From positions 1-59,163 of the forward strand of contig DATMHT010000404.1 of the NCBI GenBank assembly GCA_035554795.1: a stretch of 59,163 nucleotides of DNA. The letters run 5' to 3'. The notes under the pieces are model-generated. The model was given only the letters and a program-made list of their open reading frames with translations, ran no database searches and had not been told where the DNA came from. Made by a program: the position numbers and the translations under genes. Below are positions 62-57,646 of this stretch, piece after piece. This DNA is from Gemmatimonadaceae bacterium (GTDB taxonomy: Bacteria; Gemmatimonadota; Gemmatimonadetes; Gemmatimonadales; Gemmatimonadaceae). Every line of letters begins with the position of its first letter. Positions within the stretch are counted from its first letter, which is position 1.

Positions 62-1186
62 ATGACGTCGCCCCAGACCGCTACCGACGCGCTCCACGTG
101 CGCGGCGCCGCCGTCGTCTACCGGCTCTACGACGTCGGCTACGAGATCGCGCTCGACCGCGCGCTCGACCTGCTCGCGTCGAGCGCGCCCGAGCGTGTGC
201 GGCCGGTGCGTGGCGAGGCGCAGGCGATCCAGATCCCGAATCCGCCGATCACCGTGATCCTTGGCGCCGAGCAGCTCGTCGTCGGCGGGCGGACGCGCGA
301 CGTCGAGCTCTCGGCGCGCATCTTCGACTTCGGCGTCGTCTCGATCCGCGTCCGCGTCCCCGCGCCCGGCGACCTGACGTGGGAGGCGTTCACCGCCTTC
401 GGCAACGCCATCGACGCCGACACCGATCTCGCCGCGCTCTTCGATCAGCACGCGCGGCTGCTGACCGAGCGGATCCGGCCGGCGATCGAGCGGCCGCAGC
501 GCGCGCCCGTCACCGAGGACTACATCGTCTACCGGATCACGCGGCTGCGCGGCCCGGACGATGCGCAGCTGCCGGCGGGGGTGCTGCGCGACGTGGACGT
601 CGTCCCGCTCCTGCTCAACGAGTCGCGCCCGCTCTCCGACGACGCGCGGCGCGAGCTGCTGCCGCACCGCTTCTCGTACTACGCCGACGACCTCGCGATC
701 CTGACCTGGGACAACGCGCTCGTCGTGGACCCGGTCGAGCACGACACGGACGTCCAGTTCATCCTCGAGTTCGCGAACGCGCAGCTGCTCGAGCTGCGCT
801 ACTACGACGCCGTCCTCGACGCCGAGCTGCCGGCGATGTACGACCGGATCGAGGCCGCGCGCACCGGGCTGCGGCTCACGCGTCGCTACGCCCAGCTCCT
901 CGCCGACCTGCAGCGTCTCGTCGCCGACTCGACCGAGCTCGTCGAGCGCGTCGAGAACTCGCTCAAGGTCACCGACGACGTCTACCTCGCGCGCATCTAC
1001 TCGGCGGCGCTCGACATCTTCCGCGGCCGCGCCTGGCGCGCCGGCATCGATCGGAAGCTCGGCATCATTCGCGAGACGTACGCGATGCTGAATGGCGAGG
1101 CGCAGGCCCGGCGCGGCGAGGTGCTCGAGGTCGCGATCGTTCTGCTCATCGTCGCCGAGCTGGTGCTCGGGCTGCTGCGCGCGTGA
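62..1186 (+). CDS. DUF155/RMD1-like protein with C-terminal membrane anchor
   Basis: 374-aa ORF with ATG at 62 and strong GC3 bias. Soluble domain followed by one C-terminal TM helix (VLEVAIVLLIVAELVLGLL). This architecture is typical of DUF155/Rmd1-YagE family proteins. Family call is from memory, not searched. Confidence 0.55.
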   Translation: MTSPQTATDALHVRGAAVVYRLYDVGYEIALDRALDLLASSAPERVRPVRGEAQAIQIPNPPITVILGAEQLVVGGRTRDVELSARIFDFGVVSIRVRVPAPGDLTWEAFTAFGNAIDADTDLAALFDQHARLLTERIRPAIERPQRAPVTEDYIVYRITRLRGPDDAQLPAGVLRDVDVVPLLLNESRPLSDDARRELLPHRFSYYADDLAILTWDNALVVDPVEHDTDVQFILEFANAQLLELRYYDAVLDAELPAMYDRIEAARTGLRLTRRYAQLLADLQRLVADSTELVERVENSLKVTDDVYLARIYSAALDIFRGRAWRAGIDRKLGIIRETYAMLNGEAQARRGEVLEVAIVLLIVAELVLGLLRA

Positions 1187-3020: not shown

Positions 3021-3272
3021 ATGAAGGGAGATGGCATGCTGTACGAGCGTACGCGCACCGAGGGGAGCAGGGTCCGGATCCGTCGCGTGAGCGCCCGCGG
3101 CGCGATGCCGGTGATCGCGGTGCTGGAGTGCGCGACGACCGCGGCCCTGCCGCTCGCGCTGCTCGAGGTCGCCGCCGAGACCGAGCTCGACGCGCTGATC
3201 CTGCTCGAGCCCTACGCGCGCAGCGAGAGCGCGATCGCGAAGCTGGCGGAAGGGCTTGGGGGAGTCGCGTAA
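3021..3272 (+). CDS. hypothetical protein
   Basis: 83-aa ORF with very high GC3. Ends in TAA directly at the foot of a 32-bp perfect hairpin. No family recognised. Confidence 0.45.
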   Translation: MKGDGMLYERTRTEGSRVRIRRVSARGAMPVIAVLECATTAALPLALLEVAAETELDALILLEPYARSESAIAKLAEGLGGVA

Positions 3273-3345
3273 CGGGTAAGGGGTAACGGGTAAGGGGTAA
3301 CGGGTCTCGATCTCCCGTTACCCCTTACCCGTTACCCCTTACCCG
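3273..3345. terminator. perfect 32-bp inverted repeat (G-tract arm / C-tract arm) between convergent genes
   Basis: Left arm CGGGTAAGGGGTAACGGGTAAGGGGTAACGGG (3273-3304), loop TCTCGATCT, then the exact reverse complement (3314-3345). The right arm overlaps the last 7 nt of htpX. Each arm is itself 2x a 14-nt unit. Confidence 0.85.
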
Positions 3346-4184
3346 ACCACCATCGCCCGCAATCTCTCCACCCGCTCCTCCGTCGGCGGGTGTGTCGAGA
3401 AGAGCGACGTGATGCCGCGTCGGCCGTAGGCGGCGAGCGGGTCCACCTGCGCGAGTGGGGCGACCGCCGGCGAGACGTGCATCGGGATGCGGTGCGCCGC
3501 GGCGTCGAGCTTCTCGAGCGCCCCGGCGAGCGCGAGCGGCTGCCCCGAGATCTCGGCGCCGACCGCGTCCGCCTTGAACTCGCGCTGGCGGCTGATCGCG
3601 AACTGGATCAGCATCGCGGCGATCGGGGCCAACAGCGCGAGGGCGAGCGCGGCGATCGGGTTGCCGCCGTTGCCGTCGTCGTCGCGTCCGCCGCCGAACC
3701 AGAGGCCGAAGTGGGCGACGTTGCTGATCGCGCCGGCCATCGTCGCCGCCACCGTCTGCAGCAGCATGTCGTGGTTCTTCACGTGCGCGAGCTCGTGCGC
3801 GAGCACCCCCTCGAGCTCCTCGCGCGAGACGAGGCGCAGGATCCCCTCGGTCACGCACACCACCGCGTGCTCCGGGTTGCGACCGGTGGCGAAGGCGTTC
3901 GGCTGCTCGTGCGGCGCGATCGCGACCGTCGGCATCGGCAGCCCGGCCCGCTGGCGCAGCCGGTCCACGATCGCGTAGAGCTCCGGCGCCTGGCTCGCGT
4001 CCACGACCCGCGCGCCGTACATGCGCAGCACCATGGACGACGACGCGTAGTACATCACGAAGTTCATCACGCCCGCCATGACGAGCGCGATCGTCATGCC
4101 GCTCGAGCCGCCGATCATGCCGCCGAGCGCGACGAAGAGGGCCGTCAGGCCCGCCATCAGGACGAAGACTTTCACGTTGTTCAT
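3339..4184 (-). CDS. htpX: zinc metalloprotease HtpX (peptidase M48)
   Basis: 281 aa. N-terminal TM helices, HELAH zinc motif (LAHELAHVKNHD), PNAFATG motif and C-terminal STHPPTEERV. Textbook HtpX layout. Confidence 0.92.
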   Translation of the reverse strand: MNNVKVFVLMAGLTALFVALGGMIGGSSGMTIALVMAGVMNFVMYYASSSMVLRMYGARVVDASQAPELYAIVDRLRQRAGLPMPTVAIAPHEQPNAFATGRNPEHAVVCVTEGILRLVSREELEGVLAHELAHVKNHDMLLQTVAATMAGAISNVAHFGLWFGGGRDDDGNGGNPIAALALALLAPIAAMLIQFAISRQREFKADAVGAEISGQPLALAGALEKLDAAAHRIPMHVSPAVAPLAQVDPLAAYGRRGITSLFSTHPPTEERVERLRAMVVG

Positions 4185-42860: not shown

Positions 42861-44444
42861 TTACTGGCAGCTGCGGTTGCTCAGCTTCCCGCTCACCATC
42901 GTGTTGTCGCAGCCCACCACGATGCCCGTCGGGGCAGAGCCCACGTAGACGCCGTAGCCCGAGGCGCCGGACAGGTCGATGGAGTTGTTGTGGAAGACGT
43001 TCCCGTTGCCCCAGCCGCTCGTGATCGCCTCGACCTTGTAGCCGTTCTGCGCGGCCACCTTGCCGGTGTTGTCGGTGATGATCGCGTTGTTGCCGTAGGC
43101 GTTGACCCACGCCGACGCGTTGCCGCTGCTGTAGCCGGTACCGTCGAACGAGTTGCCCTGTACGACCGTGCCGGTGGTGCCGTCCTTCATGTCCACGGCC
43201 TCGACGGTGATGTTCGGACCGAACTGCGACGAGCGGACCGTGTTCGAGTCGCTGCGATCGGGCACGCCGTTCACCCACTGCGAGCTCGTCGTACCGATGT
43301 AGACGCCCTCGCCGTAGCCCGGCGACGAGCGGCCCGTGTTGTAGACGTGCACGCCGTCGATCAGGTTGTGCTTGCTCGTCTCCTTGAGGACGATGCCCTC
43401 CTGACCCAGGTCGTGGACCGTGAGGTGGCGAGCGGTCACGTTGGAGGAGCCGCCCTTGATGCGGATGCCGACGATGCCGTTGGTGACCGTGAAGCCGTCG
43501 AGCGTCACGTTATGGGCGCCGGAGACGATGAGCACCGTCGCGCTGGTCACGCCGCTCGTTCCGCTCAGCACGGCGTTCGACGAGCCGCAGACCACGATCG
43601 GCGCGCTGCTGCTGCCCGACTTGCCGAGCGTGAACGACCCGCCGTAGGTGCCGTCGGCGAGCTTGATAAGGTCGCCGGCCTGCGCGTTGCTGAGCGCCGA
43701 GGCGAGCGCGCTCGCCGAGCTCACCGACACGAGCCGCGAGTAGCTGTACGCCGAGCAGCCGCTGCTCGAGGAAGACGACGTGGACGTCGTCGAGGTCGAC
43801 GTGCTGCTCACCGTGACGAGCGCCGTCCCGCTCTGGCCGCCGCTGCTGGCGGTGATGGTCGCGGTGCCGCCGGCGACGGCGCTGACGACGCCGGACGCGC
43901 TCACCGTCGCGACGGCGGAGTTCGAGGTCGTCCAGCTGAACGACGCGCCGCTGATCGTGTTGCCCGACCCGTCCTTGGCCTGCGCGCTGAGCTGCGAGGT
44001 CTGACCGGCGAGCAGCGACACGCTGCTCGGCGACACGCTCACGGAGGCGACGGTCGCGCTGCTGGTCGTGCCGCCCGGGACGTAGACGTCCGCGGTGTCG
44101 CTCGCCGACTTGTACGACGCGACGATGCGGGCGTGGCCGGCGGCGCGGGCGCGGACGACGCCGCTCGAGCTGACGACGGCGATGGCCGTGTCGGCGCTGT
44201 GCCAGCTGGCCGTGGCGCTATTGCCGGGCGCGCCCGTGACGGTCGCCTTCAGCGTGTCGAGGATGCCGACGGCCAGGGTGTCGTGCTTCGGCGAAACCGT
44301 CACGTCGAGCGTCGTGCTCGACCGCGAGGAGCGGGGCGAGACGGCGTCCGTTGGATTGGTGATGGTATCGCCGGAGCAACCGGCGGAGGCGAGAATACCG
44401 GACGCGGCAATAACCGCGAACATGACCATGCGCGGAAAATGCAT
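42861..44444 (-). CDS. secreted lipoprotein: 2x Big_2 + Ser/Thr linker + right-handed parallel beta-helix (polysaccharide lyase/hydrolase-like)
   Basis: Start ATG 44444 (MHFPRMVMFAVIAASGILASAGC lipobox), preceded by AGAGGAG. Big_2-like repeats (WHSADTAIAVVSSSG, WTTSNSAVATVSASG). Poly-S/T linker. Beta-helix coils (NVTLDGFTVTNG, NVTARHLTVHD, HNLIDGVHVYN). Confidence 0.8.
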   Translation of the reverse strand: MHFPRMVMFAVIAASGILASAGCSGDTITNPTDAVSPRSSRSSTTLDVTVSPKHDTLAVGILDTLKATVTGAPGNSATASWHSADTAIAVVSSSGVVRARAAGHARIVASYKSASDTADVYVPGGTTSSATVASVSVSPSSVSLLAGQTSQLSAQAKDGSGNTISGASFSWTTSNSAVATVSASGVVSAVAGGTATITASSGGQSGTALVTVSSTSTSTTSTSSSSSSGCSAYSYSRLVSVSSASALASALSNAQAGDLIKLADGTYGGSFTLGKSGSSSAPIVVCGSSNAVLSGTSGVTSATVLIVSGAHNVTLDGFTVTNGIVGIRIKGGSSNVTARHLTVHDLGQEGIVLKETSKHNLIDGVHVYNTGRSSPGYGEGVYIGTTSSQWVNGVPDRSDSNTVRSSQFGPNITVEAVDMKDGTTGTVVQGNSFDGTGYSSGNASAWVNAYGNNAIITDNTGKVAAQNGYKVEAITSGWGNGNVFHNNSIDLSGASGYGVYVGSAPTGIVVGCDNTMVSGKLSNRSCQ

Positions 44445-44460
44445 GCGACACTCCTCTGGT

Positions 44461-44592
44461 CCGTTCGGCGGCCCGACTGGCATGGCCGCCTCGCACCAGT
44501 GGAGGACGGCTGTAGCCTCGTAGCTTTGCGTCCCCGGCTTTCGCCGGGTTTGCCTTTGTCGCTGGCCCCCGAGGGGGTGTCGCGATCCTGCC
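44461..44592 (-). promoter_or_regulatory. c-di-GMP-I (GEMM-I) riboswitch, copy 1
   Basis: The minus-strand RNA reads ...GCGACAAAGGCAAACCCGGCGAAAGCCGGGGACGCAAAGCUACGAGGCUAC...GCCAGUCGGGCCGCCGAACGG. This has the GGCAAACC-stem-GAAA-stem-GGGACGCAAAGC core and the 3' segment of GEMM-I. It ends ~17 nt before the ATG at 44444. Boundaries are approximate. Confidence 0.85.
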
Positions 44593-44948
44593 GATCAATT
44601 TGGCCCAATCGACCTTGTCGGCTTCCGAGGGGGTGCATCCCCCACTCAGTCAACGAACGGCTCGAGCCGCTCGTCACGCCGGAGGTCCACGAAGAACGTA
44701 GACAAAATGTCTGGGTCGAACAAGTGCTAATACAACATTTGTTGTTTCTAACGTTAGGCGACGGACCGAATTGTTCTGCAGCTGTCGAGATCGTGCGCCC
44801 GTACTGCCGAGCCCATGGGCGGCCTAACGCTGTGAACTCGTCTCGGCCGCGGCGGCGGAAGGTGGTGCAGGCGCGCGGCCGAAACGGGGCGGGCGCCCGC
44901 CGCGGCAGCGATGCCTAACGGCACCCTGGTCCCGGCCTAACGCCTAAC

Positions 44949-46093: not shown

Positions 46094-47245
46094 CTAGGGC
46101 GCGGCGCTGGCGTCGGCCCACTGCTCGACCGAGCGCAGGAGCGACGGCACCTGGGCGCGCGACGTGGCGCCGAGCTTGTCGAGCACCTTCTGCGTGTGAT
46201 GACGCGCGGTGTGCGGACTGACCCCGAGTGTGTGCGCGATGTCGGCGTTCGACTTCCCGTGCAGGAGCAGATGCGTGACGTCCACCTCGCGATCGGTGAG
46301 ACCGTAGGTCCGCCGCAGCGCTTCGACCGGCAGCGCCGTCACCGCGGTGGATGCGTCGGCGGGCGAGTCCACGCGCATCAGGCGCTCGAGCGAGACGGCG
46401 ATCGCCGCCGCGCCACCCGGCCCGTCCGGCGCGATCTCGCAGCAGCGGACGCGATAGCGCCCCGTGTCGCTGCGCAGCTCGATCGGCTGCGCGACGAAGT
46501 CGCGCAGGGCGGCGGGACAGTCGCCGCCGCCGCTCAGCGCCGCTGCCTCGCGCATCCGGAATCCCATCGCCGCGCGCCACAGCTCGTTGCGGATGCGGGT
46601 GCGCTGCGGCTCGGCCGCGAGCAGCCGCGCGAGCGCGGCGTTCTCATACAGCACGCTCCCGTCGCGGGCGAAGAGCAGGGTGCCGGCGCTGAGCGCGTCG
46701 AGCAGGCGGGTGAGCGCACGGTGGCTCGGCGCCGCGAACATCCGCTCGCGCGCGCCGGCGACGAACGCCGGCATGACGAGCCGCAGCGTCTCGAGGTGGC
46801 CCCGCGTCTCCGCCGCCGAGCGCGGCCCGTGGTAGTGGCAGGCGAGGCTCGCGTTGACGCCCGGAAGGTCGAGCGCGGCGGTCATGCCGACCGCCTCGTA
46901 GCGCGCGCCGTCCACCGCGACCTCGGAGATCTCGCCGTGACCGGCGCGGCGGCACCAGACGCGTGTGCGCGGCGGCGGCAGGTCGTCGGCGCCCGAGGTC
47001 GGAGACGCCTTCGGCGACTGCACGATGCGGTGCAGCAGCTCGTGGGAGATGCCGTCGCCGAAGGCGCGGACCGCGCGGCCGCACTGGAGGACGAGCACCG
47101 CGTTGGCGGCGTCGGCGAGCCGGGTGAGCGCCGCGGTCGCCGCGCGTCCCCATCGCTCGTCGTCGTCGTGTGCCGCGGCCGAGAGCAGAGCGTCGAGTGC
47201 CGTGGTGAAGCGCTCGCGGCCGTCGGGGGAAAGCGTGAGATCCAT
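46094..47245 (-). CDS. LuxR/GerE-family transcriptional regulator with uncharacterised N-terminal domain (paralogue 1)
   Basis: 383 aa (ATG 47245). C-terminal HTH LTDREVDVTHLLLHGKSNADIAHTLGVSPHTARHHTQKVLDKLG. It shares YEAVGMTA, LLFA..G..LY and GRY.(V/L)RCCEI motifs with the next gene. Confidence 0.8.
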   Translation of the reverse strand: MDLTLSPDGRERFTTALDALLSAAAHDDDERWGRAATAALTRLADAANAVLVLQCGRAVRAFGDGISHELLHRIVQSPKASPTSGADDLPPPRTRVWCRRAGHGEISEVAVDGARYEAVGMTAALDLPGVNASLACHYHGPRSAAETRGHLETLRLVMPAFVAGARERMFAAPSHRALTRLLDALSAGTLLFARDGSVLYENAALARLLAAEPQRTRIRNELWRAAMGFRMREAAALSGGGDCPAALRDFVAQPIELRSDTGRYRVRCCEIAPDGPGGAAAIAVSLERLMRVDSPADASTAVTALPVEALRRTYGLTDREVDVTHLLLHGKSNADIAHTLGVSPHTARHHTQKVLDKLGATSRAQVPSLLRSVEQWADASAAP

Positions 47246-47397
47246 CGTGCGGATCTCCGGGAGCGGGTGGTCCGGCGCGCGTTCCGGCGCCGGTACGTCA
47301 CGCACTGCTGCACGCCGACGACCGGCGACGGTCACCGAGCGGCCCAGCCGATTATAGCGAACTCCGGAGGGGCCGCAAGCCAGGCAGCGGCGGCCCG

Positions 47398-48549
47398 CTA
47401 GGCGTCGCCGGCCCGAGGCGGCGCCAGGTGCGCGTGCAGGACGGCCGGGACCTCGGCGCGCGAGCGCACGCCGAGCTTCTCGAGCACGTGCTCCGTGTGC
47501 CGGCGGGCCGTGAACTCGCTGATGCCGAGCTGGCGCGCCACCTCGGCGTTCGGCTTGCCGGCGAGCAGGAGCCTCGCCACGTCGAGCTCGCGCGTGGTCA
47601 GGCCGTAGCGGGTGCGCAGGGTCGAGGCCGCGCCCTCGAGAGGGTCCGCGGTGCTCCCGATCGTCGCGACCAACTCGATCGTCGTCGCGACGAGCGCCGG
47701 CGGCCCCGGCTCCTCGGGCGGGATCTCGCAGCAGCGCAGCACGTACCGGCCGTGCGTGGTCTCGACGGTGCACGAGTCGGTGGCGAGCGTTCGCTGGTCG
47801 GCGTCGCTCTGCCGCGTCGCCGGACGATCCGCCAGGAAGGTGCGGACGAGCTGCGCCATCTCCTCACGAACGAGGTCCCGGGCGGGGTCTCCGCCGAGGA
47901 GGCGCGTGAGGGCCGTCGTCGCGTAGAGCGGCTCGCCGTTGCCGGCGAAGAGCAGGGCGCTCGCGCCCGATGCCTCGAGCAGGCGCGCGGCGAGTCGCCG
48001 CGTTCCTGCGGCGCTGGTGCGCACGCGCGCCGCGGAGGCGAAGGCTGGAAGGAGGCTTCGCAGGAGCTCGAGGCGGCGTTGCGTCTGAATCGCGTCACGG
48101 TGCGGCGACAGCCGACATACCGCCGTCGCGAACACACCCGGAAGCCCGAGCTCCGCGGTCATCCCGACCGCCTCGTAGGCGGCGCCGTCCGCCGCGACGC
48201 CGGCGACCGCCTCCAGGGCGCGGTGGGGCACGTGCTGGGTCGTCGTCGCGGGGCGACACCAGGCGTAGGCGCGGTAGGGCGAGTGGCCGATGTCGTCGGG
48301 GATCGCCGGCGCGTTGGGCGCGCGCAGCGCGCCGCGGACCATGCCGGCCGAGACGCCGGCCGCGAGGGGCCCGATCGTCTCGCCTCCCTGGAGCACGAGG
48401 GTGACGTCGTCCGCGCCGGTGAGGGACGCCAGGGCGCGAACGACCCCGCGCTCCCACACCTCGAGCGGGGCGCTCAGTGACAGCGCGAACAACGCGGCGA
48501 GAACGTCTCCAATGCTGGAGAGGACGTTAGGCGCGAGCGTGTCGTCCAT
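47398..48549 (-). CDS. LuxR/GerE-family transcriptional regulator (paralogue 2, same 383-aa length)
   Basis: ATG 48549 (MDDTLAP). C-terminal HTH LTTRELDVARLLLAGKPNAEVARQLGISEFTARRHTEHVLEKLG. Confidence 0.8.
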   Translation of the reverse strand: MDDTLAPNVLSSIGDVLAALFALSLSAPLEVWERGVVRALASLTGADDVTLVLQGGETIGPLAAGVSAGMVRGALRAPNAPAIPDDIGHSPYRAYAWCRPATTTQHVPHRALEAVAGVAADGAAYEAVGMTAELGLPGVFATAVCRLSPHRDAIQTQRRLELLRSLLPAFASAARVRTSAAGTRRLAARLLEASGASALLFAGNGEPLYATTALTRLLGGDPARDLVREEMAQLVRTFLADRPATRQSDADQRTLATDSCTVETTHGRYVLRCCEIPPEEPGPPALVATTIELVATIGSTADPLEGAASTLRTRYGLTTRELDVARLLLAGKPNAEVARQLGISEFTARRHTEHVLEKLGVRSRAEVPAVLHAHLAPPRAGDA

Positions 48550-48739
48550 GCGTGGCTCCGTCGGAGCGCGGTGCCTGGCTACGGGCGTCGGTACCGGGGC
48601 GCGGCGATCGCCTAACGGTGGATTCCGGCCGCTCGCGCCTGACGCGGGCACGATTCGCACCGGAACTCGTGAGGCAGATCACCAAAAAAATAGGCGAAAT
48701 GACCAATGGCTCGAATTAAGGGACTCCCATATCGTGACG

Positions 48740-48845
48740 CGCGTCACAAACCCTTCTCCGAGAAGAGCACCCCGGCTGCGAGGCCGGTCCGCAGAGCCAC
48801 AGGTCTCCGATGCTGGAGACAGCTGGGCCGCCGAAGAGAGTTGAA
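48740..48845 (+). promoter_or_regulatory. structured 5' leader with partial resemblance to the two GEMM-I elements (candidate divergent riboswitch)
   Basis: CACAAACC-hairpin-...CGCAGAGCCACAGG...CAGCUGGGCCGCCGAAG compares with copy 1/2 GGCAAACC-hairpin-GGGACGCAAAGC(U/C)ACGAGG...(A/G)GUCGGG(CC/UU)GCCGAAC. The GNRA loop and the GGGAC are not conserved. Confidence 0.3.
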
Positions 48846-48902: not shown

Positions 48903-50831
48903 ATGAGGAAACGGTATGTGGTAGCCGCGACCGTGGCAGCGGTCGCGGTCGCGACGGCGTGTTCCGACTCGCCGACCGAGCTGGCGAAGCAGCGGACGCG
49001 GGCGCCGTCGGCCCCCTCGGCCAACAACGTGGCCGGCGCGGCGTTCACCTCCGTGAACGAGACCGTGGACGGCACCGGTCACTGCGCCAACGGGAACCCG
49101 AACAACAACTGCAACATCTACGACGGCAAGCAGTACGTCTGGCTCGACGGCGGGCCTGCCGCGGCGTTCCTCGGCGGCGACGGCGACTACTTCTTCGCCG
49201 TGCTCTCGCCGTCGGGCCAGGCCAACCCGAACGATGCCGCCACCGTTCCGGACGGCGGCAGCGGCTCGCCGACGAACCTGTCGGACGACTTCGACGCCTA
49301 CACGAATCGCACGTTCAGCGTGTCGGGCAACTCGGTCTCCTACAGCGGGACCCACGACTTCGACAGCGGCAAGATCCGGCTGATGCCGTACTCGAACACG
49401 CTCAATCCGGGCGGCGTCTACATCCTGGCCGTCTGCTCGCTCGCCGACGGCTACCCGGTCGCGTCGAGCAAGTGCAAGTACGACGCGTTCAAGGTCAACG
49501 TCGAGGGCGGTGGGACCGAGGCCGCGGCTCCGACGATCCTCAAGGACGCGAACGGCGCGTACGACAACACGTACGCGTGGACGATCCAGAAGGCCGTGGA
49601 CAAGACGCTCGTCAAGCAGGTCGGGGGGAGCGCGACGTTCAACTACACCGTCACCGTGACGCACGACGGCGGCACGGTCAGCAACGTCGCGGTCAGCGGA
49701 ACGATCCAGGTCTTCAACCCCAACGCCAGCGCCATCACCGGCGCCGACGTCACCGATCAGCTCAGCGACGGCACGACCTGCACCGTCACCGGCGGCGCGA
49801 ACGTGACGCTGGCGTCGGGCGCCAACAACTTCGCCTACTCGTGCAGCCTGAGCGCCCTCCCGTCCGGGTCGCTCGACAACACGGCGACGGTGACGTGGCC
49901 CGCGCAGACGCTCACCGAGGGCGCACTCGCCGCCGGGTCGGACAACTTCATGGTCGCGGGCATCACGTTCACCGCGAACGTGATCGACGAGACGATCTCC
50001 GTCACCGACACCTATGCCGGTACCCTGGGAACCGTGTCGGTCGGCGACGCCAACCCGAGTACGTTCACGTACTCGCGGACGATCGCGATTCCGGCATCGA
50101 GCTGCGTGAGCTACGGCAACACGGCGACCTTCACGACGAACGACACCGGCGCCACCGGCTCGGCCAGCCAGACGGTCACGGTCTGCGGTCCCGCCCGGAC
50201 CGGCGCGCTGACGATCGGCTTCTGGAAAGGCCCGAACGGCAACAGCCTGATTCAGAACTACTGCATGGGCAGCCCGTCGCTGGCGACGTACCTCTCCAGC
50301 CTCGGCTCGGGCTCCGGTCCGTTCGCGAACGCCGCCGGCAAGACGTGCAGCCAGCTCGTCACCTACGTCAACGGCATCATCAATGGCGCCTCGGCGACCA
50401 ACATGAACACGATGCTCAAGGCGCAGATGCTGGCCACCGCGCTCGACGTCTACTTCAGCTCGGCCGGTTACAGCACGACCGCGTACGGGTCGGGCAAGAA
50501 CCAGGTCAAGCCGCCGTCGAGCTTCCTGCCGAATGGCGGGATCGGGACGTTCACCATGGATCTCACGGCGATCTGCCCGATGGTGGACAACACGACGACC
50601 GGCACCGCGACGTGCCAGGGCGGCACGCCGTCCACCAACGGCTTCGCGTCGGGCGCGCTGCCGTCGGCGGCGATGACCATCAACAGCATCCTGAACTTCG
50701 CCGCGACCACGCCGTCGCCGTTCAACGGCTCGACGTCGAACAGCATCTGGTACGCGGGCGACCGCACGAAGGAAGAGATCCTGAAGAACGTGTTCGATCA
50801 GATCAACAACCAGGACGCCTTCGCGCCGTAA
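48903..50831 (+). CDS. secreted lipoprotein of unknown function (Ig-like/DUF11-like repeats, Cys-rich)
   Basis: ATG 48903. Lipobox AVATAC. Beta-rich, Thr/Ser/Asn-rich repeats (ATFNYTVTVTHDGGTVSNVAVSGTIQVFNP...). No catalytic motif recognised. Confidence 0.7.
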   Translation: MRKRYVVAATVAAVAVATACSDSPTELAKQRTRAPSAPSANNVAGAAFTSVNETVDGTGHCANGNPNNNCNIYDGKQYVWLDGGPAAAFLGGDGDYFFAVLSPSGQANPNDAATVPDGGSGSPTNLSDDFDAYTNRTFSVSGNSVSYSGTHDFDSGKIRLMPYSNTLNPGGVYILAVCSLADGYPVASSKCKYDAFKVNVEGGGTEAAAPTILKDANGAYDNTYAWTIQKAVDKTLVKQVGGSATFNYTVTVTHDGGTVSNVAVSGTIQVFNPNASAITGADVTDQLSDGTTCTVTGGANVTLASGANNFAYSCSLSALPSGSLDNTATVTWPAQTLTEGALAAGSDNFMVAGITFTANVIDETISVTDTYAGTLGTVSVGDANPSTFTYSRTIAIPASSCVSYGNTATFTTNDTGATGSASQTVTVCGPARTGALTIGFWKGPNGNSLIQNYCMGSPSLATYLSSLGSGSGPFANAAGKTCSQLVTYVNGIINGASATNMNTMLKAQMLATALDVYFSSAGYSTTAYGSGKNQVKPPSSFLPNGGIGTFTMDLTAICPMVDNTTTGTATCQGGTPSTNGFASGALPSAAMTINSILNFAATTPSPFNGSTSNSIWYAGDRTKEEILKNVFDQINNQDAFAP

Positions 50832-51006: not shown

Positions 51007-52608
51007 TCAGAGCCTCTTCACGGTAACCGTCGCGGTCCGCGTGTTCTGCTGACCGGCCGTGTCGGTGACCGTCAGCGTCACCGTGTAGCTGCCGGCCGCC
51101 TTGTAAGTGTACAGGAGCTTGGTGAGCGAGCTGCCCGTCGCCGCGGAGGTGCCGTCGCCGAAGTCCCAGGTGTACGACGCGATGCCGGCGTCGTCGGTGG
51201 AACCCGACGCGTCGAACTTGCACTTGCCGCGCGCGCAGCTCCACGTGAAGCTCGCCACCGGCGGCTGGTCCACCGTCGCCGGCGGAGGCGGCGATGTCAC
51301 CACTGTCGTCGTGTCCGGCGGCGGCGTGGTGGTGTCGGGGGCGGGCTGCATCGTGCCCGACGTGATGCTCGAGTACAGGAGCAGGTTCGCGGTGCCCGAC
51401 GGTACGGACGACAGCACGTTCGGCGTCGCGCCGCCGACGATCGCCGACGTCACCTGCGCCGGCGTCGCGCCCGGGTTGGCCGAGAGATACAGCGCGGCCA
51501 CGCCGGCGACGTGCGGCGACGCCATGGAGGTGCCGCCCATGACCGTGGAGCTCGTGTCGTCCACGTAGGAGGCGGAGCGGATCGCCGAACCGGGGGCGAA
51601 GAGGTCCACGCACGGGCCGAAGTTCGAGTACCCGGACATGCCGTCGCCATTCCACGACGCGCCGACCGTGAGCGCCTCGGGCGTGCTCGCGGGTGAGTAG
51701 TTGCAGGCGTCGGTCGAGCTGTTCCCGGCGGCGACGGCGTACACGACGCCCGCCTTGATCGAGCTCTGGACGGCCGAGTTGAGGGTCGAGGAGACGCTGC
51801 CCGTCAAGGACATGTTGGCGACGGCGGGGAGCGTGCGATGCTGCGTGACCCAGTCGATGCCGGCGATGATGCCGCTGTACGAGCCGTAGCCCGTGCAGTC
51901 GAGCACCCGGACCGAGTAGAGCGTGGCGCCCTTCGCCACGCCGTAGCTCTTCCCGCCGACGATGCCGGCGACGTGCGTGCCGTGGCCGCTGCAGTCGCTC
52001 GTGCCGTTGCCGTCGTTGATCGCCGAGTAGGCGCCGAGCGCGCGCCCGCCGAACTCCGCGTGCGTCGCGCGGATCCCCGAATCGAGGATGTAGACGCTCA
52101 CGCGGGCGCCCGTGGTGGCGTAGCCGTAGCTCTTGTCCAGCGGCAGCGTGCGCTGGTCGAGGCGATCGAGCCCCCAGTCGGGCGAGCTCTGCACGTCGCT
52201 CGCGCGCACGCGCTGGTCGGCCTCGACGCCCGCGACCATCGGGTTCCGCGCCAGCGCGTCCACCGCCGCGGCGGGGAAGTGCGCGGCGAAGCCCTTGATC
52301 GCGCTCGTGTAGGTGTAGCGCAGCGTGCCGCCCAGGGTGGTCGCCAACTCGCGTGCCCGCGCCGGCACGTCGCGTACCGAATCGCGGAAGACGACGATAT
52401 ACTCGTCGGGGATGACGTCGCTGGAGGAGCCCGCCGCGACCGCCGAACGGCGAAGCGTCGGCGCGGCCGCGGGGGCCGGTGGCGCGCTGGCGTCCTGACA
52501 GGCGGCGAGCGTGGCGAGGGTGCAGAGGGCGAGCGCGGTGCGCACACGCGCGCGGCGGTCGGGACGCGCGCCAACGAGCGCGGTCCCGCGACGGGTCGTC
52601 GCGGACAT
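51007..52608 (-). CDS. secreted subtilisin-like serine protease (S8, proteinase K-like) with I9 propeptide and C-terminal PKD domain
   Basis: Lipobox LATLAAC. Catalytic triad VYILDSGI (Asp), GHGTHVAG (His), GGTSMASPHVAG (Ser). C-terminal PKD (YTWDFGDGTSA...YTVTLTVTD). Confidence 0.92.
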   Translation of the reverse strand: MSATTRRGTALVGARPDRRARVRTALALCTLATLAACQDASAPPAPAAAPTLRRSAVAAGSSSDVIPDEYIVVFRDSVRDVPARARELATTLGGTLRYTYTSAIKGFAAHFPAAAVDALARNPMVAGVEADQRVRASDVQSSPDWGLDRLDQRTLPLDKSYGYATTGARVSVYILDSGIRATHAEFGGRALGAYSAINDGNGTSDCSGHGTHVAGIVGGKSYGVAKGATLYSVRVLDCTGYGSYSGIIAGIDWVTQHRTLPAVANMSLTGSVSSTLNSAVQSSIKAGVVYAVAAGNSSTDACNYSPASTPEALTVGASWNGDGMSGYSNFGPCVDLFAPGSAIRSASYVDDTSSTVMGGTSMASPHVAGVAALYLSANPGATPAQVTSAIVGGATPNVLSSVPSGTANLLLYSSITSGTMQPAPDTTTPPPDTTTVVTSPPPPATVDQPPVASFTWSCARGKCKFDASGSTDDAGIASYTWDFGDGTSAATGSSLTKLLYTYKAAGSYTVTLTVTDTAGQQNTRTATVTVKRL

Positions 52609-52620
52609 GGGGCATCTCCG

Positions 52621-52775
52621 TCGGTTCGTTCGGCAACCCGACCGGCGTGGCCGTCGCGCGGCATCGTCGCCGTGCGATCGTGCGGTAGCCTCGTGGCTTT
52701 GCGTCCCCGCCTTTCGACGGGTTTGCCCTTGTCGCGACCCCGTGCCCGCGTGGGCGGTGGAGGTGCGATCCTGCC
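52621..52775 (-). promoter_or_regulatory. c-di-GMP-I (GEMM-I) riboswitch, copy 2
   Basis: The minus-strand RNA reads ...GCGACAAGGGCAAACCCGUCGAAAGGCGGGGACGCAAAGCCACGAGGCUAC...GCCGGUCGGGUUGCCGAACGAACC, followed by GGAG and the AUG at 52608. The tetraloop stem differs from copy 1 by a G-C to U-G change. Boundaries are approximate. Confidence 0.85.
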
Positions 52776-52809
52776 GAGGGATCGTCTGCCCTGCACTTTC
52801 CTGACGGAC

Positions 52810-52843
52810 GACGGCGCCGCACCGTCACCGGCGCGGCGCCGTC
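52810..52843 (-). terminator. hairpin downstream of the E1 dehydrogenase gene
   Basis: GACGGCGCCGC (52810-52820) / GCGGCGCCGTC (52833-52843), an 11-bp perfect stem about 40 nt past the stop at 52884. Confidence 0.55.
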
Positions 52844-52883
52844 GCCGCAAACAAGCGTCCCGATTCGACGTCCCGCGACGTCG

Positions 52884-55007
<2,124 letters not shown>

Positions 55008-55984: not shown

Positions 55985-56878
55985 TCAGACCGTGCGCATC
56001 GGCCCGGACGGCCGCCGCGTTCCGAGCACCTTGCCGCCCACCTCGGCGCGCGAGTGGACGTTCAGCTTGAGCAGGACGCTCTCGGTGTGATGGCGCGCCG
56101 TGTGGGGACTGATCTCGAGCGTCTTCGCGATCTCGCCGTTGGAGTGTCCCTGCGCCAGCAGGAGCGCGACACCCGCCTCGCAGGCGGTGAGGTTGAATCG
56201 GTTGGCGAGCGCGAGCGGTGAGGGCAGCGACAGGGTGAGTCGCTCGAGCGTGACGATCACCGCGTGCTCGGCGCCGGGGAGCGCGTCCCCCAGCGGCGTC
56301 GCGTGCATCCGGTAGCGCGCGGTGGCGGTGCGCGTCTCGCGAGTCGCGGGACCGCATCCGGTCGCGGCGCCACCCGTGCCGCCACCATCGTCGTGGGCGC
56401 CGTCGCGGTGGGAGTCGCTGCCGTGGGCGCCGTTGCCGTGGTCTCGCGTGCCGGCCGGCGCGTGCCGCGGCAGCGAGAGGGCGAAGTAGCGCATCTCGCG
56501 GAGCAGCGCGCCGCGGTCGTCGTCCTCCAGCAGCGTGCGCTCGAGCGACGGGTTGCGGTAGAACATGCTCCCGGCGTCGTCGACGAGCAGCACTCCTTCG
56601 GTGAGGAAGTCGAGGACGCGCAGGAGCGCGCGGCCGGGCCGCTCGAGCTCCAGTGCCGGTAGGCGCACGGCGTCGGAGTGTGGCGTCAGCTCGATCGCGC
56701 GATCGGTGAAGCGACGGTCGGCGTGCTGGACGTGGTGGTGGAGCGACGCGAGCGAGTCGGTGAGCGACGGGCGGAGCACGGATTGCCTCCACTGAGCAGC
56801 GCCGCCGGGCGCCGTCGGCGTGGCCATGCGGGACGTCCATGACGCGACCGCTGCCACGATCGTGATCACGCGGCCCAT
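55985..56878 (-). CDS. LuxR/GerE-family transcriptional regulator (shorter third paralogue)
   Basis: C-terminal HTH LTACEAGVALLLAQGHSNGEIAKTLEISPHTARHHTESVLLKLN. The central VLLVDDAGSMFYRNPSLERTLL resembles LLFARDGSVLYENAALARLL of paralogue 1. Start ATG 56878 or 56827. Confidence 0.75.
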   Translation of the reverse strand: MGRVITIVAAVASWTSRMATPTAPGGAAQWRQSVLRPSLTDSLASLHHHVQHADRRFTDRAIELTPHSDAVRLPALELERPGRALLRVLDFLTEGVLLVDDAGSMFYRNPSLERTLLEDDDRGALLREMRYFALSLPRHAPAGTRDHGNGAHGSDSHRDGAHDDGGGTGGAATGCGPATRETRTATARYRMHATPLGDALPGAEHAVIVTLERLTLSLPSPLALANRFNLTACEAGVALLLAQGHSNGEIAKTLEISPHTARHHTESVLLKLNVHSRAEVGGKVLGTRRPSGPMRTV

Positions 56879-57109
56879 GGCCGCGGTCTGGCCGCGCGCA
56901 GGCGTCGTCGCCACGCCGGGGGCCAGTGCGGGTTGGATATAGTGCGCCAGATCACAATGGACAAGAGGGGGTCTCCCTATGGCGAGGGCCGAACCGGCGA
57001 GCTCTCGGAGACTTTCTAGGCAATTTTGCCCATCCGGGTCGGCGGACGACTGGCTATCTAGGCGCTGCCGTCCTCGCTTGCTCGCCGTCTTCGATCCCCG
57101 GGGTGCCAG

Positions 57110-57436
57110 ATGCCGGCGAACCCGGACCTCGCCAGCAAGAGCACGTTCGCCCGCGCCGTCGATGCGCTCTGTCTCTCGCGCGACGAGATCGCCCGCGCGC
57201 TGGGGCTGACGCCCGTGCTCCTCGACGCGTACACGGCGGGCACCGAGCCCGTCCCCTCCATCACGCAGCTCGAGCTCGTGGACGTGCTCAAGTCGCACGA
57301 GGCGATGCTCGGCGCGGCCGCGGGATCGCTGTACGAGGAGGCGATGCATCGCCTCGAGAGCAGCGGTCTTTCCCACCCGGTCTCCGGTCGCGAGCCGCCG
57401 CCGCCGCCGCATCCATCGTCGCGCCCGCGCGCCTAA
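57110..57436 (+). CDS. small hypothetical protein with possible HTH
   Basis: 108 aa with high GC3. LSRDEIARALGLTPVLLDAYTAG looks like a helix-turn-helix. Divergent from the third LuxR gene. Confidence 0.5.
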   Translation: MPANPDLASKSTFARAVDALCLSRDEIARALGLTPVLLDAYTAGTEPVPSITQLELVDVLKSHEAMLGAAAGSLYEEAMHRLESSGLSHPVSGREPPPPPHPSSRPRA

Positions 57437-57646
57437 CCGCTGGCGTGGCGGCAACCGCGCGCTGGCGCGCGCGGTGAGCGGGTGTGGCGGGTGCGGGCTC
57501 CTCGTCCGCTCGCCGGCGGCCGCTCCTTGACACGTGCCCATGTCCGCCAGATGTTCGCGCGGCGAGTCGCCCACTGGAGAGGGCCGGCTCCGGCACGAAC
57601 GCGCGACGCGGCGCGAACCTCGTCCGATCATCATCAGGAGCAGCGC

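What the first reader, a model, noticed from the sequence alone, without database searches (positions are those of the whole stretch)
52621..52775. Second GEMM-I c-di-GMP riboswitch, in front of a secreted S8 protease; supports copy 1 by covariation
**What the sequence shows.** The minus-strand leader of the 51007..52608 subtilase reads GCGACAAGGGCAAACCCGUCGAAAGGCGGGGACGCAAAGCCACGAGGCUAC...GCCGGUCGGGUUGCCGAACGAACC, followed by GGAG and AUG.

**Comparison with copy 1.**
- The single-stranded core positions are identical.
- The tetraloop stem changes from CCCGGC/GCCGGG to CCCGUC/GGCGGG, turning a G-C pair into a U-G pair.
- The 3' segment changes from GGGCCGCC to GGGUUGCC.
- This pattern (cores conserved, stems free to vary while staying paired) is what a structured RNA shows, not a protein-coding or purely repetitive sequence.
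- Both copies also share GGCAGGAUCGC about 30-40 nt upstream of the aptamer. This may be the 5' end of the transcript, a promoter element or an extra helix.

**Why it matters.** A riboswitch-controlled extracellular protease links c-di-GMP directly to proteolytic matrix or surface remodelling.
Basis: partly seen in the sequence, partly recalled or inferred. Interest (0 to 1): 0.8.

Follow-up and report, generated by a model that had tools for sequence, protein, structure and literature searches.

The report
c-di-GMP riboswitch before a protease gene
This is a genuine but ordinary cyclic-di-GMP-sensing RNA switch in the leader of an exported subtilisin-type protease gene of a Gemmatimonadota bacterium; the less ordinary part is a conserved 21-base block upstream of it, whose role is unknown.

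Summary
Window 52628-52736 (minus strand) is a class I c-di-GMP (GEMM-I) aptamer. It scores 60.2 bits on RF03167 and, with its P1 ends trimmed, 61.2 bits on the canonical RF01051 (cut-off 35). It carries the canonical ligand-contact bases G20, A47 and C92, so the "GGC variant" label is a scoring artefact.

A GGAG and the ATG of a 533-aa lipoprotein follow 9 and 20 nt after the aptamer. That protein has an I9 propeptide, an S8 domain with a D-H-S triad, and a PKD domain. No terminator is present, so control is most likely translational.

The same riboswitch precedes S8 orthologues in at least ten other Gemmatimonadota contigs. In 112 related leaders, 87.5% of pair cells are standard pairs, against 21-40% when partners are slid.

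Direction is unresolved. Family-wide anti-SD/SD co-variation favours c-di-GMP turning translation off (about 50%). A helix specific to this copy, which would mask the AUG, would instead fit an ON switch.

The shared GGCAGGATCGC belongs to a 21-nt block that is about 360-fold enriched upstream of these aptamers. Its function is unknown.

A third riboswitch nearby carries the A20 signature of c-AMP-GMP sensors.

Verdict: a new member of a known kind.

The parts
52628..52736 (-). c-di-GMP-I (GEMM-I) aptamer: P1, P2 with a GAAA tetraloop, and P3 with a long distal insertion
   Evidence: RF03167 60.2 bits, E = 9.6e-12. RF01051 61.2 bits against a cut-off of 35 on 52629-52730. Pair counts on 112 homologues.
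52727..52727 (-). G20, the ligand-contact position (Vc2 numbering). It is G, the c-di-GMP type.
   Evidence: Aligned to the G of the AAaGGC consensus. G at this position favours c-di-GMP and A favours c-AMP-GMP (PMC9481103).
52700..52700 (-). A47 position. It is A (canonical), not the G of the RF03167 consensus.
   Evidence: The sequence reads GACGCAAAGCC. The RF03167 consensus reads GACGCGAAgCc and shows a blank match at this column; the RF01051 consensus reads GACGCAAAgCc.
52633..52633 (-). C92 position: the first C of GCCGAA, unpaired in the model
   Evidence: Aligned to UgCCgaa. This column is C in at least 90% of the 112 leaders.
52650..52683 (-). Distal P3 hairpin (insertion). It makes this the longest aptamer of the set, 107 nt by my measure against 83-100 nt for most others.
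   Evidence: The constrained and free folds both give a 14-bp irregular hairpin. Length distribution. The first two pairs covary (helix 5).
52735..52739 (-). 5' strand of the P1 extension (GGUCG), continuous with the P1 core C52734 G52733
   Evidence: A register with a 2-nt AA bulge gives 58-72% pairing for the first three extension pairs, against 8-60% in other registers. Six of the 7 pairs of helix 1 (P1 core plus extension) change on both sides.
52623..52628 (-). 3' strand of the P1 extension (CGAACC). It ends 3 nt before the SD.
   Evidence: Copy 1 has GGCC-A-GCG / CG-AA-CGG-A-CC, a U-A to C-G exchange relative to this copy (read).
52759..52766 (-). GCACCUCC, the candidate anti-SD. It can pair with GGAGAUGC (52619-52612).
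   Evidence: RNAduplex gives -11.7 kcal/mol. With the aptamer enforced, the SD is 0.07 unpaired, against 0.60 in the free ensemble.
52744..52755 (-). Small leader hairpin GCCC-ACGC-GGGC (P0). It is enclosed by a possible CUCC/GGGG outer stem (52762-52759 with 52741-52738).
   Evidence: Folds. Of 74 related leaders, 69 have a local hairpin of -5 kcal/mol or better at this place.
52765..52776 (-). CGGCAGGATCGC, part of the conserved leader block A.AACTGAYCGGCAnGATCGC. Its function is unknown.
   Evidence: An exact copy also lies before copy 1. GGCA.GATCGC occurs 23 times within 75 nt upstream of aptamers and 13 times in the rest of 0.92 Mb. Position-wise conservation.
52616..52619 (-). Shine-Dalgarno GGAG
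   Evidence: Sequence. It lies 7 nt before the ATG.
52606..52608 (-). Start codon ATG
   Evidence: ORF list. The N-terminus carries a lipobox, LATLAAC.
52591..52614 (-). 3' strand of a copy-specific alternative helix (UGCCCCAUGUCCGCGACGACCCGU). It would pair with 52724-52743, that is, the 5' flank, the P1 5' strand and the aptamer core.
   Evidence: The minimum-free-energy fold contains this helix. The duplex is -38.3 kcal/mol with z = -3.1, the only one of 74 leaders with z below -2.
51007..52608 (-). Regulated gene: a 533-aa lipoprotein-type exported subtilase (I9 propeptide, S8 domain, PKD)
   Evidence: Pfam, catalytic motifs, orthologues annotated as subtilisin or aqualysin.
52807..52846 (-). 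GC-rich hairpin after the stop codon of the upstream E1 dehydrogenase gene (no U tract). It leaves only about 30 nt before the conserved block.
   Evidence: Sequence. Not called as an intrinsic terminator.
44463..44563 (-). Copy 1: the sister riboswitch before a Big_2 lipoprotein gene (42861-44444)
   Evidence: RF03167 69.6 bits; Pfam Big_2.
48756..48835 (+). Third GEMM-I aptamer, with A at position 20, before the lipoprotein gene 48903-50831
   Evidence: RF01051 46.8 bits; comparison with the syntenic leader of L132.

Best explanation
Window 52628-52736 (minus strand) is a canonical class I c-di-GMP riboswitch aptamer in the 5' leader of an exported S8 protease mRNA of a Gemmatimonadota bacterium.

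Shown here:
- The family assignment.
- The canonical binding-site bases G20, A47 and C92.
- The helices, with covariation.
- Conservation of the riboswitch-protease pairing in related genomes.
- The absence of a terminator, with the SD and AUG lying 9 and 20 nt after the aptamer.

Inferred:
- The switch acts on translation initiation.
- Ligand binding locks P1 and its lineage-specific extension (GGUCGCG with CG-AA-CGA-A-CC). This brings the 5' flank next to the ribosome-binding site.
- The pyrimidine tract GCACCUCC, otherwise held in a small leader hairpin, then pairs with GGAGAUGC. High c-di-GMP therefore lowers protease synthesis (an OFF switch).

I put the identity and the translational level at about 0.85-0.9. 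I put the OFF direction at only about 0.5.
For: Identity:
- RF03167 60.2 bits, E = 9.6e-12.
- RF01051 61.2 bits against a cut-off of 35, with the core matching the canonical consensus.

Structure, on 112 related leaders:
- 87.5% of pair cells are standard pairs, against 21-40% when the 3' partners are slid.
- 14 pairs change on both sides.
- The covariation score is 0.236, against 0.123 in shuffles (0 of 500 shuffles reach it).

Conservation:
- The riboswitch precedes S8 orthologues or paralogues in L009, L085, L088, L115 and L117.
- It also precedes them in L119, L120, L126, L127, L128 and L129 and before both S8 genes of L131.
- L132 keeps the full synteny: E1 dehydrogenase, riboswitch, S8.

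Translational level:
- No terminator-like site was found.
- In most of the 120 leaders the SD and start codon follow within roughly 10-30 nt.

OFF direction:
- With the aptamer imposed, the SD is less accessible in 17 leaders and more accessible in 2 of 74. The mean unpaired fraction is 0.23, against 0.33 in the free ensemble.
- For this copy the figures are 0.07 and 0.60.
- The 5' flanks fit their own SD window better than those of other leaders: -12.95 against -11.20 kcal/mol, permutation p about 5e-5.
- In the S8 orthologues the anti-SD and SD change together: CCCCCUCC/GGAGGGGG, CCCUCCUU/AAGGAGGG, CUUCCCGA/UCGGGAGG, CCUCCCG/CGGGAGG.

Precedents: Vc2 is a translational OFF switch (bioRxiv 10.1101/617340). 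The C. difficile zmpI protease is repressed through a class I riboswitch (PMC6366702).
Against: - No ligand binding or expression data exist.
- In this copy the anti-SD pairing is weak. GCACCUCC with GGAGAUGC is 7 bp with a mismatch. The whole 5' flank against the 3' flank gives z = 0.06 against shuffles.
- In several orthologues the closing helix that masks the SD is predicted with or without the aptamer constraint. Thermodynamics alone therefore gives no switch, and a kinetic argument is needed.
- The anti-SD bases lie in the 5' arm of the leader hairpin in 37 leaders and in the 3' arm in 24. That is only a weak fit to the three-element model.
- This copy also has a strong alternative helix that would mask the AUG when the aptamer is not formed. 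That points the other way.
- The transcription start is unknown. If it lies downstream of 52759, the proposed anti-SD is not in the RNA.
Confidence: 0.82

Rival explanations
1. Same aptamer, opposite logic: an ON switch. Without ligand, 52743-52724 (the 5' flank, the P1 5' strand and the GGGCA core) pairs with 52614-52591 (the SD-AUG spacer, the AUG and codons 2-6). This destroys the aptamer and masks the start codon. c-di-GMP binding holds the 5' strand in the aptamer and frees the start codon.
For: - The unconstrained minimum-free-energy fold contains this helix.
- The free fold is -117.5 kcal/mol, against -103.0 with the aptamer enforced, a gap of the order of a tight ligand's binding energy.
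- The duplex is -38.3 kcal/mol with z = -3.1, the only one of 74 leaders below z = -2.
- Class I ON switches exist: Vc1 and Bc2.
Against: - The helix is specific to this copy, and no orthologue shares it.
- The only closer relative, L119, has an identical leader and so gives no covariation.
- One hit at z = -3 among 74 tests is only mildly unexpected.
- With the aptamer formed, the SD is predicted to be paired anyway (0.07 unpaired).
- The family-wide trend goes the other way.
Confidence: 0.3
2. It is a member of the c-di-GMP-I-GGC variant class (RF03167), with an altered binding pocket and possibly a different ligand.
For: RF03167 is the best-scoring family in clan competition, at 60.2 bits against its cut-off of 59.
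Against: - The one core position at which the two printed consensus sequences differ is the base after GACGC. It is G in RF03167 and A in RF01051. It is A in this copy and in copy 1.
- The canonical model scores 61.2 bits, 26 bits above its cut-off.
- Orthologous leaders flip between the two models: L127 and L120 are best on RF01051, while L128, L129 and L126 are best on RF03167.
Confidence: 0.03
3. The aptamer acts at another level. It could modulate Rho-dependent termination or mRNA decay, or protect an upstream RNA 3' end as reported for Vc2, rather than control ribosome access.
For: - No clean two-state SD switch emerges from the thermodynamic models.
- Vc2 also controls the stability of upstream RNAs.
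Against: - The SD and AUG sit 9 and 20 nt from the aptamer.
- The 5' flank co-varies with the SD window.
- Nothing in the sequence specifically points to Rho or to an RNase site.
Confidence: 0.1

Closest known systems
c-di-GMP-I (GEMM-I) riboswitch, Rfam RF01051; type example V. cholerae Vc2 before tfoY
   Same: - A three-helix junction with a GAAA tetraloop in P2.
- G20, A47 and C92 in the core, and a score of 61.2 bits.
- A position in the 5' UTR of a gene for an exported protein.
- Probable control of translation, as proposed for Vc2.
   Different: - P1 is extended by 5 further pairs around bulged A's.
- P3 carries a 34-nt distal hairpin.
- The receptor-like internal loop reads CUAC/CCAC rather than the CUAAG/UAUG of the consensus.
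- A conserved 21-nt block and a small hairpin precede the aptamer in Gemmatimonadales leaders.
- The proposed anti-SD lies upstream of the aptamer, whereas in Vc2 it is described as downstream.
c-di-GMP-I-GGC variant, Rfam RF03167
   Same: It is the best hit in clan competition (60.2 bits). The stem sequences and the explicit P1 of that model fit this lineage well.
   Different: The base after GACGC is A here and G in the model consensus. From memory, the family name lists the bases at the three ligand contacts (G20, G47, C92). The source paper (PMC5358364) was not available to check this.
C. difficile class I riboswitch before zmpI (the PPEP-1 metalloprotease)
   Same: A class I c-di-GMP riboswitch directly controls a secreted protease; c-di-GMP represses it (PMC6366702).
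   Different: - That one is a zinc metalloprotease in a Firmicute, controlled by transcription termination.
- This one is a serine S8 protease in a 72% G+C Gemmatimonadota genome, with no terminator and probable translational control.
c-AMP-GMP (GEMM-Ib) riboswitches of Geobacter and relatives
   Same: The same scaffold. The neighbouring third aptamer (48756-48835) has the A20 signature.
   Different: The copy under study has G20, so nothing suggests c-AMP-GMP specificity for it.

Membership tests
c-di-GMP-I riboswitch (RF01051) | Covariance-model score at or above the curated gathering score | tested here: met
   61.2 bits against 35 on 52629-52730. A lower-scoring clan hit was also suppressed in the full-window gathering scan.
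c-di-GMP-I riboswitch (RF01051) | P1/P2/P3 three-way junction supported by covariation | tested here: met
   112 leaders: 87.5% paired against 21-40% when slid. P2 pairs read CG/UA/AU/GC and UG/GC/CG/UA. P3 pairs read CG/UA/UG and AU/GC/UA. Caveat: many columns were fixed by the search pattern used.
c-di-GMP-I riboswitch (RF01051) | Ligand-contact bases G20, A47 and C92 | tested here: met
   G52727, A52700 and C52633, aligned to the consensus.
c-di-GMP-I riboswitch (RF01051) | GNRA tetraloop in P2 docking into a receptor in P3 | tested here: inconclusive
   The GAAA loop is present (52715-52712). P3 has an asymmetric internal loop, CUAC/CCAC, at the receptor's place, conserved in the lineage. 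It is not the consensus 11-nt receptor, and docking cannot be tested with these tools.
c-di-GMP-I riboswitch (RF01051) | Lies in a 5' leader on the strand of the downstream gene | tested here: met
   The aptamer ends 20 nt before the ATG of 51007-52608 on the minus strand.
c-di-GMP-I riboswitch (RF01051) | Binds c-di-GMP selectively | not testable with these tools
   Needs in-line probing or ITC.
c-di-GMP-I-GGC variant (RF03167) | G instead of A at the position after GACGC (position 47) | tested here: not met
   The sequence has A; the alignment shows a mismatch to the consensus G.
c-di-GMP-I-GGC variant (RF03167) | Score at or above the gathering score | tested here: met
   60.2 against 59, only 1.2 bits above the cut-off.
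c-AMP-GMP riboswitch (GEMM-Ib) | A at position 20 | tested here: not met
   G52727. The criterion is as stated in PMC9481103.
Translational riboswitch acting by SD sequestration | No terminator; SD and AUG within reach of the aptamer | tested here: met
   0 terminator-like sites. The SD lies 9 nt and the AUG 20 nt after the aptamer.
Translational riboswitch acting by SD sequestration | Conserved, mutually exclusive pairing that links P1 formation to SD access | tested here: inconclusive
   The 5' flank and SD co-vary across the family (p about 5e-5; examples). The pairing is weak in this copy. The direction is not settled.
Peptidase S8 (subtilase), exported | S8 domain with a D-H-S triad, a propeptide and a signal peptide | tested here: met
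   PF00082 E = 3.7e-38, PF05922, PKD. DSG176, HGT209, GTSMA359 and the lipobox LATLAAC.

The most novel reading that the evidence does not exclude
The shared GGCAGGAUCGC is the core of a 21-nt block (A.AACTGAYCGGCAnGATCGC). In Gemmatimonadales this block sits about 30 nt upstream of class I c-di-GMP aptamers and, in functional-looking form, nowhere else.

It could be a so-far undescribed module of these riboswitches. Two forms are possible:
- A dedicated promoter or regulator site that puts a whole set of riboswitch-controlled surface-protein genes under a second, shared control. GerE/LuxR regulators lie next to several of these genes.
- A 5' RNA element that, together with the small leader hairpin and the extended P1, forms a lineage-specific expression platform placed upstream of the aptamer.
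Probability: 0.35. Interest if true: 0.5.

Novelty: new member of a known kind. Interest (0 to 1): 0.3.

Why it matters
It adds a well-supported c-di-GMP riboswitch to a poorly studied phylum, Gemmatimonadota.

There, this RNA is found mainly before genes for exported lipoproteins. These include Big_2 surface proteins and S8 proteases, sometimes with several copies per locus. c-di-GMP therefore probably remodels the cell surface directly at the RNA level.

A riboswitch-controlled protease is not new in itself: zmpI in C. difficile is a precedent.

Three things would be worth a specialist's time:
- The conserved upstream block that travels with these riboswitches.
- The upstream-placed anti-SD design.
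- The neighbouring aptamer with an A20 pocket, whose syntenic counterpart has a U92 pocket. This hints at ongoing changes of ligand specificity within one gene cluster.

Tried and rejected
- **GGC-variant reading.** Rejected: A rather than G at position 47, and the canonical model scores as well or better.
- **Intrinsic terminator or sigma-70 promoter near the leader.** None found.
- **The conserved block as a known promoter type.** By eye, it does not fit sigma-70 (-35/-10 spacing), sigma-54 (GG-to-GC spacing is 9, not 12), ECF-type or sigma-28 spacing. No conserved element lies further upstream. This is not resolved.
- **The block as a CsrA-type GGA site.** Rejected, because the middle base varies (GGCAGGAT, GGCACGAT, GGCATGAT).
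- **The block pairing with P1 or with early codons.** Only 4 bp (UCGC/GCGA) in most leaders. Isolated matches to codons occur in L117, L085 and L115. There is no general complement, so this was not adopted.
- **The third copy of the 12-mer, on the plus strand at 52932.** It lies inside the E1 dehydrogenase gene, reads as Ala-Ile-Leu-Pro codons on the coding strand, and looks like the other coding-region chance hits. Treated as coincidence.
- **Thermodynamic ON/OFF prediction.** Constrained against free folding gives a trend towards OFF but no clean switch.
- **Three-element model (leader hairpin, anti-SD, SD).** Only weakly supported: 37 against 24.
- **Covariation test of the copy-specific AUG-masking helix.** Impossible: the only closer relative, L119, has an identical leader.
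- **Papers not held.** Weinberg et al. 2017 (PMC5358364) and Kellenberger et al. 2015 (PMC4418906).
- **Literature search for c-di-GMP riboswitches in Gemmatimonadota.** Nothing specific found.

Full report
**Observation**

A scan of the whole window against Rfam gives three class I c-di-GMP aptamers:
- 44463-44563(-), copy 1: RF03167, 69.6 bits.
- 52628-52736(-), this finding: RF03167, 60.2 bits, E = 9.6e-12.
- 48756-48835(+), a third copy: RF01051, 46.8 bits.

- P2 differs by a two-sided G-C to U-G change.
- The 3' strand of P3 differs by one-sided changes that keep or improve pairing.
- The only slip concerns the single-stranded cores, which differ at one variable position (ACAAAG in copy 1, ACAAGG here).
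- The shared upstream word is exact and 12 nt long, CGGCAGGATCGC, at 44593-44582 and 52776-52765.

**Which family**

RF03167 (the "GGC" variant) wins the clan competition by a hair: 60.2 bits against its cut-off of 59. Three results argue against that label:
- The printed consensus sequences of the two models differ in the core at the base after GACGC, which is G in RF03167 and A in RF01051. Both minus-strand copies have A there.
- When the P1 ends are trimmed so that the canonical model is reported, this copy scores 61.2 bits on RF01051 (cut-off 35, E = 2.6e-12), with every core base matching.
- Orthologous leaders of the same gene flip between the two models. L127 (65.2 bits) and L120 (56.2 bits) are best on RF01051, whereas L128, L129 and L126 are best on RF03167.

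I therefore file it as a canonical c-di-GMP-I aptamer with G20 (52727), A47 (52700) and C92 (52633). That the name "GGC" denotes these three positions is from my memory. The source paper was not available.

**The gene**

ORF 51007-52608(-) encodes 533 aa with Inhibitor_I9, Peptidase_S8 (E = 3.7e-38) and PKD domains. It carries DSG176, HGT209 and GTSMA359 motifs and a lipoprotein-type signal with the lipobox LATLAAC. Thousands of homologues exist, many annotated as subtilisin or aqualysin.

**Relatives and organism**

A degenerate core pattern found at least 118 loci, nearly all Gemmatimonadales or Longimicrobiaceae metagenome-assembled genomes. The 72% G+C window is therefore most likely from Gemmatimonadota.

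The genes behind these aptamers mostly start with lipoprotein signal peptides. The largest group comprises Big_2 proteins like the gene behind copy 1.

S8 orthologues or paralogues sit behind the same riboswitch in many contigs:
- L009, L085, L088, L115 and L117.
- L119 (99% identical protein, identical leader), L120, L126, L127, L128 and L129/L130.
- L131, which has two tandem S8 genes, each with its own riboswitch.
- L132, which keeps the whole synteny of the window: E1 dehydrogenase, riboswitch, S8, then a convergent gene of about 630 aa with its own riboswitch.

The association is not universal. Three orthologues at 68-69% identity have AT-rich leaders without it.

**Structure**

I aligned 112 distinct leaders. 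The named structure comprises P1 with its extension, P2, the proximal part of P3 and the first two distal P3 pairs. Results:
- 87.5% of cells are standard pairs, against 21-40% when partners are slid by 1-3 columns.
- 14 pairs change on both sides.
- The covariation score is 0.236, against 0.123 in shuffles (0 of 500 shuffles reach it).

Caveat: the retrieval pattern fixed 30 bases. Only the free positions and the whole 3' strand carry information.

P1 is longer in this lineage than in the Rfam models. After the two core pairs and a bulged AA, further pairs covary (CG/UA/UG and others). Here the helix is GGUCGCG with CG-AA-CGA-A-CC.

This copy has the longest aptamer of the set. The reason is a 34-nt distal P3 hairpin at 52650-52683.

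**Expression platform**

- No terminator-like or sigma-70-like site lies in 52300-53000.
- The SD starts 9 nt and the AUG 20 nt after the aptamer.
- Most related leaders have the same compact layout.

Control of translation initiation is therefore the natural reading.

**Direction: evidence for OFF**

- When the aptamer is imposed, the SD becomes less accessible in 17 of 74 leaders and more accessible in 2. The mean unpaired fraction is 0.23, against 0.33.
- In the S8 orthologues, P1 continues outward into a closing helix. There a pyrimidine tract of the 5' flank pairs with the SD, and the two sides change together: CCCCCUCC/GGAGGGGG, CCCUCCUU/AAGGAGGG, CUUCCCGA/UCGGGAGG, CCUCCCG/CGGGAGG.
- Across 74 leaders the 5' flank fits its own SD window better than those of other leaders (-12.95 against -11.20 kcal/mol, permutation p about 5e-5).

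This suggests an OFF design. Ligand-stabilised P1 would bring an upstream anti-SD onto the SD. Without ligand, that tract would stay in a small local hairpin, which is present in 69 of 74 leaders.

**Direction: evidence against a firm call**

- In this copy the pairing is weak: GCACCUCC with GGAGAUGC. The whole-flank z-score is 0.06. The SD unpaired fraction is 0.07 with the aptamer enforced and 0.60 in the free ensemble.
- In several orthologues the SD is predicted to be masked in both states, so a kinetic argument is needed.
- The arm test is only 37 against 24.
- This copy alone has a strong alternative helix, 52743-52724 with 52614-52591. Its duplex is -38.3 kcal/mol with z = -3.1, the only one of 74 leaders below -2. 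It would break the aptamer and mask the AUG, which is the logic of an ON switch.
- Its only closer relative has an identical leader, so covariation cannot judge this helix.

I put OFF at about 0.5, ON at about 0.3 and another level of control at about 0.1.

**The shared upstream word**

The word is the core of a 21-nt block, A.AACTGAYCGGCAnGATCGC. The GATCGC lies 28-36 nt before the aptamer's GGCAAACC in most of the 41 leaders anchored on it, and nothing further upstream is conserved.

GGCA.GATCGC occurs 23 times within 75 nt upstream of aptamers. It occurs 13 times in the remaining 0.92 Mb on both strands, roughly a 360-fold enrichment. Those other 13 occurrences look like chance hits in coding sequence. 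They include the reverse-strand copy inside the E1 dehydrogenase gene at 52932.

It is therefore specific to these leaders. It is present in Gemmatimonadales-type leaders and absent from Longimicrobiaceae-type leaders.

- It does not fit the spacing of the promoter types I compared by eye, and it is too invariant to reveal pairing.
- In both window copies, its 3' end enters the predicted closing helix. That would require it to be at least partly transcribed.
- Only about 30 nt separate it from the hairpin that follows the upstream gene.

**Comparison with known systems**

- Family membership in c-di-GMP-I is met on every feature testable here.
- Membership in the GGC variant and in the c-AMP-GMP variant fails on their defining bases.
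- A class I riboswitch before a secreted protease is already known for zmpI in C. difficile, where c-di-GMP represses the protease (PMC6366702).
- Translational class I switches are known for Vc1 (ON) and Vc2 (OFF) (bioRxiv 10.1101/617340).
- No paper on c-di-GMP riboswitches in Gemmatimonadota turned up.

**Side observation**

The third aptamer of the window has A at position 20 and G at position 48. A at position 20 is the change associated with c-AMP-GMP selectivity (PMC9481103).

- Its syntenic counterpart in L132 has G20 but U at the C92 position.
- L086 carries a second A20/G48 aptamer in tandem with a G20 one.

This cluster may therefore hold aptamers with different pockets. I did not pursue it further.

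**Verdict**

A real, canonical c-di-GMP-I riboswitch before an exported S8 protease gene, and a new member of a known kind. Interest is modest. It is raised a little by the conserved leader block and by the variant pocket next door.

Noticed in passing
window 48756-48835 (+), leader of 48903-50831: A third GEMM-I aptamer has A at the G20 position (48766) and G at position 48 (CGCAGAGCC). This is the A20 signature linked to c-AMP-GMP selectivity. The syntenic leader L132 8136-8217(-) has G20 but U at the C92 position.
   Followed up: partly
L086 about 845-950 and 1036-1142 (+): Two aptamers lie in tandem before a Big_2 lipoprotein gene. The first has A20 and G48, like the window's third copy. 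The second has the canonical G20.
   Followed up: no
window 44582-44593 and 52765-52776 (-); 41 related leaders: The 21-nt block A.AACTGAYCGGCAnGATCGC lies about 30 nt upstream of the aptamers. It is about 360-fold enriched there, is absent from Longimicrobiaceae-type leaders, and matches no promoter type that I compared by eye.
   Followed up: partly
window 46094-47773 (-), 47398-48660 (-), 55985-57634 (-); L128 1-523, L129/L130 11-1120: Large GerE/LuxR-type regulator genes lie next to riboswitch-controlled genes, both in the window and in two orthologous loci. They may be candidate partners for the conserved leader block.
   Followed up: no
window 3270-3348: A near-perfect long inverted repeat is built from GGGTAAGGGGTAAC units around TCTCGATCT. 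It gives sub-threshold hits to miRNA hairpin models on both strands.
   Followed up: no
L131 169-269 and 2066-2164 (+): Two tandem S8 protease paralogues each have their own class I riboswitch. One is best on RF03167 and the other on RF01051.
   Followed up: no
L121, L123, L125 about 1090-1500: S8 orthologues at 68-69% identity have AT-rich leaders without any riboswitch, so the association has been lost or was never gained in some lineages.
   Followed up: no
window 52763-52770 and 52672-52679 (-): The 8-mer GATCGCAC occurs twice in this leader: once in the conserved block and once inside the distal P3 insertion. This could be chance or the trace of a duplication.
   Followed up: no
window 52932-52943 (+): A reverse-complement copy of the 12-mer lies inside the E1 dehydrogenase gene, 156 nt upstream of the leader copy. 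It reads as Ala-Ile-Leu-Pro codons and is probably chance. If the upstream gene's transcript reads through into the leader, the two could pair.
   Followed up: partly
L018, L023, L034, L048, L054, L074, L106 compared with L115: These leaders share nearly the same 3' flank and signal peptide (MLSxPRGFGF..LVPGC) as the S8 gene of L115. However, tblastn finds no S8 domain downstream of them, so the leader and signal peptide may have been reused in front of different genes.
   Followed up: no
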